Source: Eledone cirrhosa (lineage: Eukaryota). From it: a stretch of 64,000 nucleotides of DNA. The notes under the pieces are model-generated. The model saw only the letters and a list, made by a program, of their open reading frames with translations, ran no database searches and was not told the origin of the DNA. Both the position numbers and the translations under genes were made by a program. Each line of letters starts with the position of its first letter. Positions within the stretch are counted from its first letter, which is position 1. Below, one piece after another: positions 22,995-60,727 of the stretch. Where the stretch lies: assembly GCA_964016885.1 (NCBI GenBank), contig OZ024755.1, positions 12,462,001 to 12,526,000 on the forward strand, read 5' to 3'.

Positions 22995-23239
22995 TGTCCT
23001 TAGAATTATTAGATAAAATATATACCATTTCCTCTCCCAATTAGCATAATTAAACATATAAAAAAACCAATTAGACCAGGCTATAAGAATAAAGGCTTCT
23101 ATGAAGAAATTTTCGACAAATAACTGAAAGCGGCCACTTCGCGGTGACCCCAATAGGGTATTTATCCAACATTTCAACAGCATGTAGAAACTGACTTAAT
23201 ATACCGTCAACCAAATTTACACCTAATTGTGTATGGTTC

Positions 23240-23845
23240 GCCAAACCACTGCAATGGTTCTGATGCATAACATTCAGATTAAACATGGACTGGTGGTATC
23301 TAAGTTATATTCCATCGCCAAACCACTGCAATGGTTCTGATGCATAACATTCAGATTAAACATGGACTGGTGGTATCTAAGTTATATTCCATCGCCAAAC
23401 CACTGCAATGGTTCTGATGCATAACATTCAGATTAAACATGGACTGGTGGTATCTAAGTTATAGTCCATTGCCAAACCACTGCAATGGTTTTGATATTTA
23501 AAAAATAGACACCACCAGTCCACATTTTATCTATTTTTTAAATATCAAAACCATTGCAGTGGTTTGGCAATGGACTATAACTTAGATACCACCAGTCCAT
23601 GTTTAATCTGAATTTTATGCATCAGGACCATTGCAGTGGTTTGGCGATGGAATATAACTTAGCTGTCATCAGTCCACATTTTATCTAAGTTATATTCCAT
23701 TGCCAAACCACTGCAGTGGGTCTGATGCTTAAAATTAAGATTAAATATGGACTGGTGGTGTCTAAGTTATATTCCATTGCCAAACCACTGCAGTGGTTTT
23801 GGTACTTAAAAAGTAGATTAGATGTGGACTGATGACGGCTAAGCA
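23240..23845. repeat. 77-bp tandem repeat with an internal inverted block
   Basis: gccaaaccactgcaatggtt units start at 23240, 23317, 23394 and 23471. Inverted units span about 23500-23685, and the forward orientation resumes from about 23690. Confidence 0.9.
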
Positions 23846-24378: not shown

Positions 24379-24444
24379 GTGTGTCTGTGTATACATACTG
24401 AGAGAGAATGATTTACGTAAAACACCGGTTGCGAGGCAACGTTG

Positions 24445-24960
24445 AGAGAGAGCGGGGGAGAGCGGGAGGGAGAGAGAGAGCGGGAGGGAGAGAGAGAGCG
24501 GGGGAGAGAGAGAGTGGGGGAGAGAGAGAGAGAGAGAGAGTGGGGGAGAGAGAGAGAGAGAGAGAGTGGGGGAGAGAGAGAGAGAGAGAGAGAGAGAGCG
24601 GGGGAGAGAGAGAGAGAGCGAGGGAGAGAGAGAGCGGGAGAGAGGGGGAGAGAGAGAGAGCGGGAGAGAGAGAGAGAGAGAACGGGAGAGAGAGAACGAG
24701 AGAGAGAGAGAGAACGAGAGAGAGAGAGAGAGAGAGAACGAGAGAGAGAGAGAATGAGAGAGAGAGAGAACGAGAACGGGAGAGAGAGAACGGGAGAGAG
24801 AACGGGAGAGAGAGAGAGAAGAGAGAGAGAGAACGGGAGAGAGAGAGAACGGGAGGGAGGGAACGGGAGAGAGAGAGAACGGGAGAGAGAGAGAGAGAGA
24901 GAGAGAACGGGAGAGAGAGAGAACGGGAGAGAGAGAGAACGGGAGAGAGAGAGAGAGCGG
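24445..24960. repeat. GA-rich polypurine satellite
   Basis: (GA)n with cggg/acgg interruptions. Confidence 0.9.
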
Positions 24961-30305: not shown

Positions 30306-31669
30306 CTAAAGAGTAAGGATAATTGTTTACAAAAATATATAGTTAAATATATAATAATTTCCAATGACTAATAAATTAATTGCTAAATATATCTGACGTG
30401 TTGCAATGTTGTGGAAATATCCAAAGCGGCAGAGAGGGTTGTATGGTGTGGATTGTATAGTGGGAAATGCAGGCTTAGTAATTTTCTTTATGTGGTCAGA
30501 GCAAGAAGTGTCACAAAGTAGGTTCGTTAGCTTATGAAAATATAAATTGAAATCATTTTGGAGATTGTGGAGCATAACTGGGCTAAGAGGACAAACATTG
30601 TAGGGTTAAGCTATGACGCTAAATACCCAGGCGCCAGCAGGGCTGACATGTTATAACCCTCTCTCACACCACTGTCTAAATCAGACATGGGCAACCATTT
30701 TCGAGGAGTGGGCCGCATGAGCCATATATGTGGGGCGTAGCTGAAACATACCTCTCAGACTAGGGTGTAAAGATCTGCTATTCCCTCCCTCGTCCCCCCC
30801 TTTTCTGTTGCCATTTAAGGTAACTGTAAAGTTAGACAATTAAAATAATTAAAAGATCATTATGTAGTACAACTAAATAATAGAACAAACTCTATAGATA
30901 ATGAACACAACCACAAGGATATGGTCCGATCGTTGTTTAACTTTTTTTCTTCCTTATTTCTACAACTTATCCTTAGAATGTTTTTGACAGCTCTTCTTGT
31001 GTGACAGACGGACAAACAGGCCGTACAATTGTTATAATATAGATTACAAGCTATTTAAAGTGACGCTCTATCGTTTCTGCCAATTGCAACCTGCATGATG
31101 GCTATATAATAGCGTGACAATAGCAACAACGAAATTATCAATGGTGAAATGTACGTGGCCATCTTTATTACTAAATAAACGTGTGGATATTACAAATTGG
31201 GTGGAACAACAATTGAATAGAAAGGGGAAAAGGTGGAGGAGAAGACAGGAAATAGTTCTTGTTGTAACAAGAAAGGACATCGTTGGCAATGGACACGATA
31301 ATTTCTCCTGATTGGCCTAAATTTACGATGTCAACGTTGTTAAAGTCCAATGAGAAGAAAAGGAAAAAAGAAAATCAGTGATAGTGACTCAGAGGAAAAC
31401 TTTCCCCTGCAGCTAGCAAACGAGATGACAATTGAAAAACTCCCTTAACTGTAATTCAGATACAGTATATTCATTGTAGCTTACCTCAGCAAAACTCCCT
31501 TGGCAATAGGAAGGAAGCTTTTGTATGTTGAGAAGAGAGGGAGTCGGGCAGGAAGGGAGAGAGAGATCGTAAAGACAGCAATAGTAGAGGGGAGAGATAC
31601 GGTCAAGAAAGACAGATAGTAGAAAGGAGAGAGTGACTGTAGAGAAAGCAATGGTGGAGAGAGCAAGAT

Positions 31670-32005
31670 GGGAGAGAGAGAGAGATCGTCGAGAGAGAGG
31701 GGGGGGAGAAAGATGGCTGAGAGAGAGAGAGATGGTCGAGAGAGAGAGATGGTCGAGAGAGAGAGATGGTCGAGAGAGAGAGATGGTCGAGAGAGAGAGG
31801 TGGTCGAGAGCGAGAGATGGTCGAGAGAGAGAGAGATAGTCGAGAGAGAGAGAGATAGTCGAGAGAGAGAGAGATGGTCGAGAGAGAGAGATGGTCGAGA
31901 GAGAGAGATGGTCGAGAGAGAGAGATGGTCGAGAGAGAGAGATGGTCGAGAGAGAGAGAGATGGTCGAGAGAGAGAGAGAGATGGTCGAGAGAGAGAGAT
32001 GGTCG
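31670..32005. repeat. (GA)n-TGGTC minisatellite
   Basis: gagagagatggtc units. Confidence 0.9.
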
Positions 32006-32433
32006 AAAGGAAAAACGAAAAACTGTGAAGGAAACAGCTAACGTAATGAACTAAAAGAATTATATTAGTTATTAGCAGGCTCAATTCAGTGTTAAAGTTG
32101 AATGACTCAATAAAACAAAATATGATGACAAAATAAAACATGACAAAATAAGATAAAAGAAGATGGGACACATCATTTGTGACAATGACGGTGTTGTGTG
32201 AACAATAAAATCTATTGTAATTGCTGTATTCAACCAAGAAGGAATGGCCATACAAATGAATCGTACTTTATTATGCATGATGTAATTTTATTATGTATCG
32301 ACCAAGTAAATTATATAAAGGATGTCAAATTAAGTGACCATAGTGTTGTTGTTGCATTCAGACATTTGAAATTGGAAATGACGCCACACAAATGGATAAC
32401 AGATTTATTTTGTATTTCTGGACAACATATTCT

Positions 32434-41523: not shown

Positions 41524-41817
41524 TAGTTATGTAATAAACAACATAAGATAATTATTTCATTTACCAGTGGTTTCTTGAAAGCAACCAAAATTGCTTTCAT
41601 TCATCAGAATGAAAAAATCCTGGTGTCTTTATTCCAAGACACCAGGATTTTTTCATTCTGATGAATGAAAGCAATTTTGGTTGCTTTCAAGAAACCACTG
41701 GTAAATGAAATAATTATCTTATCTTGTTTATTACATAACTAATAAGCTCTGTAACCTACATAGAGCACTCTTTTTTCCTGGACCTTTCCGGCGGAATTAT
41801 TTCATTCACACATATTT

Positions 41818-41818
<1 letters not shown>
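41524..41818 (+). mobile_element. Penelope-like pLTR-derived insertion: 106-bp inverted repeat plus ~77-bp tail, in (TA)n
   Basis: Arms 41524-41629 and 41636-41741 have one mismatch and a 6-nt spacer. A hammerhead is inside, and the flanks are microsatellite. Confidence 0.75.
41651..41710 (+). ncRNA. Type I hammerhead ribozyme, intact core
   Basis: tttcatt-CTGATGA-atgaaagcaattttggttgctttcaa-GAAA-ccactgg-TA-aatgaaa. Stem I is a perfect 7 bp, stem II is long, and the cleavage triplet is GUA. Confidence 0.88.
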
Positions 41819-41875
<57 letters not shown>

Positions 41876-56902: not shown

Positions 56903-57861
56903 ATGTCAAGTTGTCAGTAAAATGACGAATCAGTTCAGTCGAGCTCCTTTTAAACAATGAATGTCAATATCAACGAAAATTGATTTTTCCAGAATTGCTG
57001 ATTCAAACGTGTTAAACTTCATTATGTAATAATAATCGATATTATTAACAACGGAATGACATTTAATTAAATTCTGATCAATGGAGTTATCATAAAGCTA
57101 TAAATATTTCTTCAAAAGATGAAGGATGAAATCAGAAAATTGCTCCAACTGAGCCACAGAGAATTGAAATGAAAAATGATATGAAATGAACTTTACACCT
57201 CACATCTATGTTGGTTGTATCGCATAAAAAGGTTTCTCGGGTGTTTTAATGATAGTTCCCCCCCTCCCCTCCCCCCACAGTCCTATCAACTCTACGGGTT
57301 TTTGTTAAAGGTCACACCTATGTAGGTTTAGCTCGCCTCATACAAGGTTGTCTCATAGGTTTCTGGGGTGTTTTAATAATAGGGCCCTATATAGGTTTAG
57401 CAGGGTTCCTACAAGATTGTATCAAATATGTTTCTTAGATGTTTAAATGATAGGAGCCCTCAGTCCTTTTAACACTCTACGGGTTGTTACAGCTCACACC
57501 TATATAGGTTTAGCTGGCCTCCTACGAGGTTTTATCATAAGTTTCTTCGATGTTTCAATGACGGGGGTTCCAGTCCTATCAACACGCTACGGGTTGTTTC
57601 AGCTCACACACATGCAGGCTTGGATGGCCTCCTACAAGTTTGTATCTCCCAGATTTCTTAGGTGTTTTGAAGATTGAGGCTGAAAATGGAATTCAAGACA
57701 GTGGATGATATGGTAATGTTCTATTACAGGTTTCAGTTATTTGACTGCGATCATGCTAGACCAATGCTTTGAAGGGATTTAGTCGCCTCAGTACTTCTTT
57801 TTTTTTTCAAGTCATTTTATCTCTTTTTTCGAACTGCTAAGTTACAGGACATCAACACACA

Positions 57862-57913
<52 letters not shown>

Positions 57914-57917
<4 letters not shown>

Positions 57918-58122
57918 GGAAAAAGAATAAAGCAAGAACTGTGGGGGGGGGGGGGCCTCATCAGTTGTTTACTGGGGGTCTCGGATATTTCAACACGAAA
58001 TATCCGAGACTCCCAGTAGACAACTGATGAGGAAAACTCCCGACCCCGTTCTTGCTTTCTTCTTATTCTCTTTCCATTTTTAAGCCTACCTTAAATAGAA
58101 ACTACACAGCCAATCCTATCCT

Positions 58123-58125
<3 letters not shown>
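57914..58125 (+). mobile_element. Inverted-arm element with one-sided tail in (TA)n
   Basis: cctcatcagttg...ggatatttc pairs with gaaatatcc...caactgatgagg around a 5-nt loop, with degenerate outer arms and TA flanks. Confidence 0.5.
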
Positions 58126-58156
<31 letters not shown>

Positions 58157-58159
<3 letters not shown>

Positions 58160-58421
58160 AAAAAATCTGCTTCGTAGAATCAAGACGTATCTGAGGACCT
58201 TGCGATTTTTAGAGTCAGGTTCGAACATCACATCGATCGTGCCTCGAGCTGGTCGCCAGAGAAACGATTGTAATATTCCAATAAATTCCGTTCGTCGCAA
58301 CACTGATTCTCTTTTTTTCTGTGATATCATACTCTGTTCTATGAGAGCATCGAGTGCTCATACGGCCTACCGCATACGGACGCTTTAAGCATCCAACACC
58401 AATTATATATAAGCCCATCCC
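58157..58421 (+). mobile_element. Hammerhead-bearing PLE-like element, source of the adjacent array unit
   Basis: It contains a hammerhead core, GAGTGCTC at 58352-58359, and the terminal hairpin ggacgctttaagcatcc at 58378-58394. TA flanks. Confidence 0.55.
58187..58276 (+). ncRNA. Diverged type I hammerhead ribozyme
   Basis: gtat-CTGAGGA-ccttgcga...tcgccaga-GAAA-cgattg-TA-atat. Stem III is quasi-palindromic and stem I is short. Confidence 0.55.
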
Positions 58422-58443
58422 TATATATATATATATATGTGTT

Positions 58444-58458
58444 GGATGCTTAAAGCGT

Positions 58459-58496
<38 letters not shown>

Positions 58497-58509
58497 ATGC
58501 TTAAAGCGT

Positions 58510-58549
<40 letters not shown>

Positions 58550-58562
58550 ATGCTTAAAGCGT

Positions 58563-58598
<36 letters not shown>

Positions 58599-58611
58599 AT
58601 GCTTAAAGCGT

Positions 58612-58657
<46 letters not shown>

Positions 58658-58670
58658 ATGCTTAAAGCGT

Positions 58671-58722
<52 letters not shown>

Positions 58723-58735
58723 ATGCTTAAAGCGT

Positions 58736-58779
<44 letters not shown>

Positions 58780-58792
58780 ATGCTTAAAGCGT

Positions 58793-58830
<38 letters not shown>

Positions 58831-58843
58831 ATGCTTAAAGCGT

Positions 58844-58893
<50 letters not shown>

Positions 58894-58906
58894 ATGCTTA
58901 AAGCGT

Positions 58907-58942
<36 letters not shown>

Positions 58943-58955
58943 ATGCTTAAAGCGT

Positions 58956-58989
<34 letters not shown>

Positions 58990-59045
58990 ATGCTTAAAGC
59001 GTCCTATATATATATATATATATATATATAGGATGCTTAAAGCGT

Positions 59046-59079
<34 letters not shown>

Positions 59080-59092
59080 ATGCTTAAAGCGT

Positions 59093-59126
<34 letters not shown>

Positions 59127-59270
59127 ATGCTTAAAGCGTCCTATATATATATATATATATATATATAGGATGCTTAAAGCGTCCTATATATATATATATA
59201 TATATATATAGGATGCTTAAAGCGTCCTATATATATATATATATATATATATATAGGATGCTTAAAGCGT

Positions 59271-59314
<44 letters not shown>

Positions 59315-59761
59315 ATGCTTAAAGCGTCCTATATATATATATATATATATATAGGATGCTTAAAGCGTCCTATATATATATATATATATATATAGGATGC
59401 TTAAAGCGTCCTATATATATATATATATATATATAGGATGCTTAAAGCGTCCTATATATATATATATAGGATGCTTAAAGCGTCCTATATATATATATAT
59501 ATAGGATGCTTAAAGCGTCCTATATATATATATATAGGATGCTTAAAGCGTCCTATATATATATATATATAGGATGCTTAAAGCGTCCTATATATATATA
59601 TATATAGGATGCTTAAAGCGTCCTATATATATATATATATAGGATGCTTAAAGCGTCCTATATATATATATATATAGGATGCTTAAAGCGTCCTATATAT
59701 ATATATATATAGGATGCTTAAAGCGTCCTATATATATATATATATAGGATGCTTAAAGCGT

Positions 59762-59763
<2 letters not shown>
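58444..59763. repeat. Array of 30 identical 17-bp hairpin units GGATGCTTAAAGCGTCC separated by pure (TA)n spacers
   Basis: Copies counted by eye. Spacers are 16-48 nt and shorten towards the right end. Confidence 0.95.
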
Positions 59764-59801
<38 letters not shown>

Positions 59802-59804
<3 letters not shown>

Positions 59805-59989
59805 AAATAAGACCCCGACGGCTGAGCTCAAGCCGTTTCGACGGCTAATTCTGTACAGAATTAGCCGTCGAAACGGCTTGAGCTCAGCCGTCGGGGTCTT
59901 ATTTGTTCCTATTACCCACTCTACTACCCTAAGTATTGAGTACTTTGGTGCGTTATGGTCCACCTGGTTCCTTACCACATTTCCTTCGT

Positions 59990-59990
<1 letters not shown>
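59802..59990 (+). mobile_element. Palindromic PLE-like insertion, gaccccgacgg family
   Basis: Perfect palindrome centred on ctgtacag plus an ~80-bp tail ending ttccttcgtt, between (TA)n tracts. It carries a hammerhead 3' half, GAAA-cggc...gccg-TC-ggggtc. Confidence 0.7.
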
Positions 59991-60020
<30 letters not shown>

Positions 60021-60727
60021 GGATGGGCTTCTGCACAGTTTCCGTCGACCGAATTTCATTCATAATGCAATTGCGTAACATTCCATATTTAGGTATCCAG
60101 ATTAATGGACTTACGAGCTTATGATAGTGAACCGAACACTAACCACTGAACTAACTATTTGCATTCTTCGATTCGTCATAAATGTGATTAAATAAAACGT
60201 TTAAAATATAACAGGAAAAGAACTAAAACGTAAAGAATATTTTGTCAGCTGGTGGAAAGACCAGCCTACAATCTAAATATAATCCAGCCATAAAACAAAG
60301 ACATGATTGTCTTTTCAAATATTCTTTTGTTCTGGTATCAAAGATTACAGAAAGAGAAATTAAATACAAATTGAATTCTTATCAAAAGAATTCAGTAGAA
60401 AGACAAAGAAATAAACAAAACAAAATGTTAAATTATTTTTAAATGTTCACTAAAATTTACTCAAGTGTATAAACTGTAGGTTGAAGAAGAGAGCAAAAGG
60501 AAGAAAGGAGCACTTGCACAACACGCTCCTGAAGTTGAGGTTGTTCTATCTACGGGGTATTAAACAACCCATTTACGGCGCCTCCCCCCTATAGGGGATT
60601 TCGATTGTTATATTTGTTTGTTTCATATTTTTACACGATTGTATGTAATATCCCCGGCATGTGTCCTTGTTTTGTCCCCCTTTTCTTGTGCGCATTTGGC
60701 TAATAAAGAAATATATATTAAAAGAAA

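What the first reader, a model, noticed from the sequence alone, without database searches (positions are those of the whole stretch)
58378..59763. CRISPR-looking array: 30 copies of a retroelement's terminal hairpin separated by (TA)n spacers
Seen in sequence: invariant GGATGCTTAAAGCGTCC (7-bp stem with one GU pair, extended by flanking TATA) repeated 30 times. The spacers are pure TA, 16-48 nt, and converge on 18 nt at the right end. The unit is the exact reverse complement of 58378-58394, near the 3' end of the adjacent hammerhead element. The first unit also keeps gtgtt, complementary to the element's next bases, aacac. Inference: the array began as an inverted copy of the element's end. 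One route is reiterative priming by a Penelope-type RT (established as the closest retroelement relative of telomerase RT) alternating between a short RNA template and the TA target, a telomerase-like repeat addition at an internal site. The other is later slippage or unequal exchange. The tract can also form cruciforms in many registers.
Basis: partly seen in the sequence, partly recalled or inferred. Interest (0 to 1): 0.8.

Follow-up and report, generated by a model that had tools for sequence, protein, structure and literature searches.

The report
Retroelement-hairpin minisatellite with TA spacers
Thirty identical copies of a 17-base hairpin, matching the tail of a very abundant hammerhead-bearing repeat next door, sit between TA runs and were most likely multiplied by ordinary DNA slippage rather than by a telomerase-like enzyme, which makes this a curious but likely ordinary minisatellite.

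Summary
The array is in the window as described: 30 exact 17-nt units (58444-59763), 29 pure-TA spacers of 16-48 nt, shorter and more uniform to the right. The unit is the reverse complement of 58378-58394. The neighbour (E2, about 58162-58403) is a high-copy family (3011 contigs in one run) with a type I hammerhead motif, ends running into (AT)n and inverted truncated copies, as in Penelope-like elements. Corrections: the hairpin is not terminal (at least 9 nt follow it), and E2's RNA lacks the A-B-A' layout that telomerase-type repeat addition needs. Best reading (0.68): a 22-nt inverted tail fragment landed between two TA runs, was trimmed to a perfect TA-extended hairpin, and grew by slippage or unequal exchange. 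The unit is the most stable TA-flanked hairpin of 1064 tail windows, and the window holds six other unit-plus-microsatellite arrays, though with short or non-hairpin units. Reiterative reverse transcription (0.12) is not excluded: the spacer gradient runs in the cDNA direction. Reads did not test the array and no genome was held, so an assembly artefact (0.08) and genome-wide recurrence remain open.

The parts
57915..58124 (+). E1: fold-back element between TA runs (79% arms), with a decayed CTGATGAG motif; separate neighbour in the same TA hotspot
58125..58156 (.). (TA)16 run upstream of E2
58162..58403 (+). E2: copy of a high-copy non-coding family with Penelope-like features; fixed 5' end near 58162, one 3' end at 58327, family sequence continuing to 58404-58410
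   Evidence: tables 1, 2, 5, 6, 7, 8
58184..58279 (+). Type I hammerhead motif: CUGAGGA (58191-58197), 63-nt stem II region, GAAAC-NNNN-GUA (58261-58272); stem I 4 bp in this copy, 7 bp with the family-majority letters
   Evidence: table 7; no Rfam hit
58328..58403 (+). 76-nt tail beyond the first 3' end, a run of small stem-loops ending AC-rich
58378..58399 (+). Sequence matching the founder in reverse complement: 17-nt hairpin (58378-58394) plus aacac
58411..58421 (+). 11-nt fragment identical to the TA-adjacent end of another repeat at 60020-60030 (minus strand); likely a separate ultra-short insertion (weak: E 0.87)
58422..58438 (.). 17-nt TA run left of the founder
58439..58460 (-). Founder unit: 22-nt inverted copy of the E2 tail (gtgtt + hairpin)
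58444..59763 (+). Array: 30 invariant 17-nt hairpin units with 29 pure TA spacers, 16-48 nt, shortening rightwards
59764..59801 (.). (TA)19 closing the array
59802..59989 (+). E3: unrelated family, perfect 106-nt fold-back head plus 82-nt tail, further copies near 46049 and 1585-1731

Best explanation
The array is a composite minisatellite whose unit matches the tail hairpin of the adjacent high-copy hammerhead repeat, and it likely grew by hairpin-assisted replication slippage or unequal exchange between flanking TA runs. Step 1 (inferred): a 22-nt inverted piece of the family's 3' tail came to lie between two TA runs, either as an aborted reverse-transcription product of a Penelope-like enzyme or by fold-back DNA synthesis at a break in the TA run next to E2; I cannot separate these. 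Step 2 (inferred): a nascent strand ending at the base of the stem folded on itself, copied its own TA, and re-annealed to the TA run behind it. This gives a same-orientation copy trimmed exactly to the stem and leaves gtgtt only on unit 1. Step 3 (inferred): [hairpin + TA] blocks were duplicated repeatedly with TA as the flanking direct repeat, most recently at the right end, while older, longer spacers drifted in length. No function is implied.
For: All 30 units share one orientation although TA is palindromic. With 12 nt of TA on each side, the exact unit ranks 1 of 1064 sub-windows (12-30 nt) of the E2 tail for DNA hairpin stability; dropping gtgtt removes a bulge. Spacers come in plateaus (26/30, 24, 16/18); 9 of 28 neighbours are equal against 2.3 expected, p 6e-5; step size falls 7.1, 4.2, 1.6 nt by thirds. 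The window holds other fixed-unit plus dinucleotide arrays without hairpin units: 5 of the 6 clusters found by my scan and 3678-3884. Family ends listed are 58327 and 58404-58410, not the stem base. Tail-only arms of inverted pairs exist in the family (joints to 58329-58373, table 5). Slippage between short flanking repeats is the published route from TE pieces to minisatellites (PMC6947457, passages); hairpins and (AT)n cruciforms drive expansions (PMC12708500, passages).
Against: Neighbour similarity is confounded with the gradient: after linear detrending, lag-1 autocorrelation is 0.21, p 0.09. The comparison arrays found by the scan have 3-5 nt units, and most have less variable spacers, so this array is extreme in the window. 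No unit carries a mutation, so duplication history cannot be traced. Plain slippage alone would keep gtgtt; step 2 is needed and is untested. The array strand is the cDNA strand and the gradient runs in the cDNA direction, which the reverse-transcription rival predicts. One search hid 383 loose-end rows and skipped the TA-rich end, so rare ends at the stem base are not excluded.
Confidence: 0.68

Rival explanations
1. Reiterative reverse transcription by a Penelope-like RT: the enzyme copies a short RNA (hairpin + (UA)n), stops at the stem base, jumps back to the UA tail and repeats, in one event; progressive trimming of the tail would give spacers falling from 48 to a protected 16-18 nt.
For: The array strand is antisense to the hammerhead-bearing strand, i.e. 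cDNA sense. A purified Penelope/Poseidon enzyme nicks AT-rich DNA on both strands and starts without homology in an AC-rich stem-loop (PMC11167929, parts 1-2 of 4); the founder starts in the AC-rich end of the E2 tail. The gradient direction fits. RT-made tandem repeats exist in DRT10 (PMC12632851, passages) and DRT2 (PMC12039810, search listing only).
Against: Telomerase/DRT10-type addition needs an A-B-A' template; E2 RNA has none around the unit, and the only short flanking repeat (AUA) would give units that include gtgtt and an extra G (read). A derived RNA lacking 9 nt must already exist. No frequent family end is listed at 58394 or 58399. My search for repeat addition or template jumping with Penelope-like RTs listed no paper whose title or abstract opening shows it (14 of 15 listed).
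Confidence: 0.12
2. One burst of iterative DNA repair synthesis (repeated fold-back and re-annealing at a broken TA cruciform, or rolling-circle copying of a tiny DNA circle) made most units at once; spacer differences arose during or after that event.
For: Units are invariant, so the array is young. The locus is a TA cruciform hotspot with several fold-back insertions. It uses the same chemistry as step 2 of the best explanation.
Against: A single circle predicts one spacer length; plateaus at 26/30, 24 and 16/18 suggest several rounds with inherited spacer length.
Confidence: 0.1
3. Assembly or library artefact: a short TA-flanked hairpin was over-expanded by the assembler or by amplification.
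For: No read or contig tested the array. The best runs hold only 0.36-0.43 of 42 sampled words, about what the family-shared part of E2 could give (E2 is 235 of 368 distinct 31-mers).
Against: No N in the window; spacers are structured rather than uniform; no indel error in 30 units or 29 spacers; other long satellites in the window are resolved with internal variation.
Confidence: 0.08
4. Thirty independent abortive insertions of the family into one TA run.
For: The run is an insertion hotspot (E1, E2, an 11-nt fragment, E3), and ultra-short inserts between TA runs occur (39 nt at 51177-51215).
Against: Independent events in a palindromic target would be random in orientation (1 in 2^29 for all alike) and would not share both boundaries.
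Confidence: 0.01

Closest known systems
[quoted passage not shown]
   Same: A short piece of a retroelement, flanked by direct repeats, is amplified head-to-tail into an array of tens of copies.
   Different: The flanking repeats are TA microsatellites that vary from 16 to 48 nt, the unit is trimmed exactly to a hairpin, and the array is polar. Searches listed no paper whose title or abstract opening describes this layout; full texts and supplements were not checked.
Non-autonomous Penelope-like element pLTR fragments / non-LTR retrozymes (PMC8557442 passages; PMC4209133 parts 1-2 of 4; 10.64898/2026.07.22.740005 part 1 of 5)
   Same: The donor family E2 has a type I hammerhead motif, ends in (AT)n, an optional tail, and inverted 5'-truncated partners.
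   Different: The tail is 76 nt, not 30-40; the stem II region is 63 nt; no RT partner was seen. Retrozyme tandem units each hold a ribozyme; the array's units hold none.
Telomerase and DRT10 repeat addition (PMC12632851, passages)
   Same: Many identical short units in one orientation, on the cDNA strand of a structured RNA.
   Different: No A-B-A' template in E2; spacer length varies threefold; internal site; no enzyme identified.
CRISPR arrays (recalled)
   Same: Invariant palindromic repeat, polar array.
   Different: Spacers are pure TA with no information, vary threefold in length, and lie in repeat-rich eukaryote-like DNA with no coding-looking frame.

Membership tests
TE-derived minisatellite | Head-to-tail array of a unit over about 10 nt, tens of copies | tested here: met
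   30 units, period 33-65 nt
TE-derived minisatellite | Unit matches part of an interspersed repeat | tested here: met
   17/17 and 22/22 match to E2; 3011 and 3054 contigs laid on E2 in X1 and X2, one sample
TE-derived minisatellite | Short direct repeats flanking the founding motif | tested here: met
   TA runs on both sides of 58439-58460
TE-derived minisatellite | Copy number varies among individuals | not testable with these tools
Penelope-like non-autonomous element (donor E2) | Type I hammerhead motif in the repeat | tested here: met
   Descriptor hit at 58191; 10 hits in the window against 0.2 per shuffle, 50 shuffles; a first scan missed it through a pattern fault; no Rfam hit; in this copy the ribozyme fold is 8.9 kcal/mol above the free fold; cleavage untested
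Penelope-like non-autonomous element (donor E2) | Two alternative 3' ends (body and tail) into a (TA)n target | tested here: met
   Loose ends read (AT)n behind 58327 (37 contigs X1, 34 X2, 256 reads X21); other contigs and reads run on to 58404-58410, where the tool began skipping repeats
Penelope-like non-autonomous element (donor E2) | Inverted 5'-truncated partner copies | tested here: met
   10 of 15 listed joints are between opposite strands, 8 of them anchored at 58162-58168; 3 rows not shown
Penelope-like non-autonomous element (donor E2) | Autonomous partner with PLE-type RT and GIY-YIG endonuclease sharing this pLTR | not testable with these tools
   No genome; none of 62 stop-to-stop frames of 120 aa or more looked coding by eye, no Pfam scan run
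Telomerase-type repeat addition product | RNA template with alignment and templating segments (A-B-A') equal to the unit | tested here: not met
   Flanks of the hairpin in E2 are unrelated; requirement from PMC12632851
Telomerase-type repeat addition product | Fixed repeat length | tested here: not met
   Period 33-65 nt
Telomerase-type repeat addition product | Processive repeat synthesis by an RT shown in vitro | not testable with these tools
   Bench experiment
CRISPR array | Unique spacers of near-constant length | tested here: not met
   All 29 spacers pure TA, 16-48 nt
Non-LTR retrozyme array | Each tandem unit holds a hammerhead | tested here: not met
   No descriptor hit inside 58444-59763

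The most novel reading that the evidence does not exclude
The array is a fossil of one reiterative reverse-transcription event: a Penelope-like RT, primed on a nicked TA run, cycled about 30 times over a tiny hairpin-(UA)n RNA, and the spacer gradient from 48 to 18 nt records the shrinking RNA tail. That would be telomerase-like repeat addition by a eukaryotic retrotransposon at an internal site, and a direct source of new minisatellites.
Probability: 0.12. Interest if true: 0.8.

Novelty: new member of a known kind. Interest (0 to 1): 0.3.

Why it matters
On the best reading it is a clean, young example of a minisatellite born from a retroelement fragment in a TA microsatellite, with the founder, its likely source and a polar growth record side by side; useful as a case study, and as a likely cruciform-forming fragile spot, but not a new system. 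If the reverse-transcription reading held, it would show repeat-addition processivity in a Penelope-like RT and bear on the origin of telomerase. A genome-wide count can tell the two apart cheaply.

Tried and rejected
No whole genome is held, so the key genome-wide test was not run. Rfam: 0 hits at gathering level in 64 kb; the 537 E-value hits on 57800-60100 (150 listed) are hairpin noise below the gathering scores; no hammerhead model hit E2. E2 folds no better than shuffles (z -0.55). I first read the hammerhead core as CTCGAG at 58243 and dropped it: it is non-canonical and has no stem I; the canonical box is at 58191. Metagenome scans: the TA-flanked unit gave 0; the bare 17-mer gave 22 single matches, 0 of 22 with a TA run and none similar to E2 beyond 24 nt, so chance. 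Runs X4-X20 hold 0.05-0.14 of the words; of these only X4 was laid, and the rest are no evidence. Read starts at 58375 and 58392 in X21 both fall on GCAT and are likely restriction sites of that RAD library, not element ends (untested). Snap-back copying as the amplifier was rejected because it would alternate orientation. Earlier scan notes: nothing for this genome or for look-alike stretches; one search gave 8 bacterial repeat notes that do not bear on this. From recall, the repeat landscape resembles octopus genomes; this was not tested and nothing rests on it.

Full report
Observation. The window shows 30 exact copies of the 17-nt unit from 58444 to 59763, separated by 29 pure TA spacers of 16-48 nt and closed by (TA)19. 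The reverse complement occurs once, at 58378-58394, and unit 1 extends the match to 22 nt. Spacer length falls from left to right (rho -0.88, p 5e-10) and 9 of 28 neighbouring pairs are equal against 2.3 expected. After removing the linear trend, neighbour correlation is weak (0.21, p 0.09). The stem has a G.T pair on the array strand and a C.A mismatch on the other. All this is shown in the assembled sequence only.

The neighbour. No genome is held, so I searched public runs and laid 4 of the 23 listed on 58157-58472. E2 is a very abundant family in organism A: 3011 and 3054 contigs in two runs of one sample, and 3189 raw reads in a RAD run of another. It has a fixed 5' end near 58162; 10 of 15 listed joints join opposite strands, 8 of them from 58162-58168 to varying places up to 58350. 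It has one 3' end at 58327 running into (AT)n, and other copies continue to 58404-58410. So there is a body and a 76-nt tail, and the hairpin lies in the tail with at least 9 nt after it. A type I hammerhead motif sits at 58191-58272 (10 such motifs in the window against 0.2 per shuffle). Its stem I is 4 bp in this copy and, by my reading of the loose-end consensus, 7 bp in the family majority. Rfam does not detect it, and the ribozyme fold is not the preferred fold of this copy. Hammerhead, tail, inverted truncated partners and TA targets are the features described for Penelope-like elements (PMC8557442, passages; PMC4209133, parts 1-2 of 4). No RT partner was seen, so 'Penelope-like non-autonomous family' is a likely label, not a proven one. 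The tool skipped the TA-rich right end of the stretch, so the junction, unit 1 and the array were not tested by reads.

The setting. This TA run is an insertion hotspot: E1, E2, an 11-nt fragment identical to the end of the repeat at 60020-60030 (weak match, E 0.87), the founder and E3 lie within about 2 kb. Other fold-back elements beside TA runs occur at 13674, 41526 and 46049. Arrays of a fixed unit with dinucleotide spacers are common here: my scan found 6 clusters, this one and 5 others with 3-5 nt units, and 3678-3884 has a 17-nt unit with (GT)4 eight times. None has a long hairpin unit or spacers this long, so the array is extreme but not alone.

Mechanism. The founder is a 22-nt inverted piece of the tail (shown). 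Against the family end it lacks 2-4 nt next to the TA run (alignment). It may be an aborted cDNA: a purified Penelope/Poseidon enzyme nicks AT-rich DNA on both strands and starts without homology in an AC-rich stem-loop (PMC11167929, parts 1-2 of 4). It may equally be a fold-back copy of the adjacent E2 (-28 kcal/mol hairpin). The exact match does not single out the neighbour, because one search lists no common variant within the 17-mer (48 rows not shown). Units 2-30 begin and end at the base of the stem, and with TA on both sides that exact 17-mer is the most stable DNA hairpin of 1064 tail sub-windows. I infer that a nascent strand ending at the stem base folded back, copied its own TA and re-annealed behind the unit. 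That yields a same-orientation copy without gtgtt. Later slippage or unequal exchange with TA as flanking repeat would then add blocks, the published route to TE-derived minisatellites (PMC6947457 and PMC9659126, passages), helped by hairpin and (AT)n cruciform instability (PMC12708500, passages). Plateaus of spacer length and the uniform right end fit recent growth there. Confidence 0.68.

The telomerase-like rival. Repeat addition by telomerase and DRT10 needs an A-B-A' template (PMC12632851, passages). E2 RNA has CCGCAUAC before the hairpin and AACACCAAU(AU)n after it, so it cannot template unit plus TA without skipping 9 nt exactly in each of 29 cycles, and one search lists no frequent end at the stem base (383 loose-end rows not shown). 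A looser version survives: an RT jumping back on a derived hairpin-(UA)n RNA. For it, the array is on the cDNA strand and spacers shorten in the direction of synthesis, as tail trimming would give; a DNA-level model leaves that direction to chance. The search listed no paper whose title or abstract opening shows such cycling by a Penelope-like RT. I give this 0.12, a single burst of DNA repair synthesis 0.10, an artefact 0.08 and independent insertions 0.01.

Literature and novelty. Searches listed no paper whose title or abstract opening describes hairpin units with variable TA spacers derived from a Penelope-like tail. I read only listings for most, no supplements, and the library lacks most subscription papers, so absence from print is not established. 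PMC13282606 (part 1 of 3) and 10.64898/2026.07.22.740005 (part 1 of 5) were read for background; the parts read do not describe such arrays. Metagenome scans gave nothing related.

Verdict. Real in the assembly, correctly described, and correctly traced to the neighbouring repeat family. Most likely a young TE-derived composite minisatellite: a new member of a known kind, interest 0.3. The reverse-transcription reading would be worth 0.8 and can be tested by a genome-wide count of such arrays, their boundaries and their polarity.

Noticed in passing
window 13674-14082, 41526-41831, 46049-46327, 57915-58124, 59802-59989: Fold-back elements beside TA runs: an inverted head that stops at a fixed boundary plus a longer arm; four have an extra tail of about 80-90 nt, longer than the 30-40 bp given for Penelope-like tails in PMC8557442. 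Two carry full hammerhead motifs in both arms.
   Followed up: partly
window 11056, 11274, 13236, 13771, 13894, 41607, 41658, 46613, 51955, 58191: Ten type I hammerhead-like motifs in 64 kb against 0.2 per shuffle, none detected by Rfam at gathering level; stem II regions of 12-63 nt.
   Followed up: partly
window 58243-58272 and 46759-46788: A recurring CTYGAG...GAAAC-NNNN-GTH motif without the canonical core; in E2 it lies inside the long stem II region of the canonical motif.
   Followed up: no
window 31651-32006, 3678-3884, 24444-24957, 44195-44504, 56284-56902, 6062-9458: Other composite arrays of a fixed unit with dinucleotide spacers, several with block-wise drift of the unit along the array.
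   Followed up: partly
run X4 (organism B), laid on window 58157-58472: Only 6 contigs hold the E2 family, 5 of them at 95% identity or more, against about 3000 in organism A: a low-copy relative, carry-over or transfer.
   Followed up: no
window 58411-58421 and 51177-51215: Ultra-short inserts (11 and 39 nt) between TA runs; the first equals the TA-adjacent end of the repeat at 60020-60030.
   Followed up: partly
window 46109-46279: The E3-family copy here has an 87-nt internal tandem duplication after its inverted head, a partial tandem.
   Followed up: no
window 23238-23843: A 77-nt tandem repeat present in both orientations, forming inverted arrays of about 600 nt.
   Followed up: no
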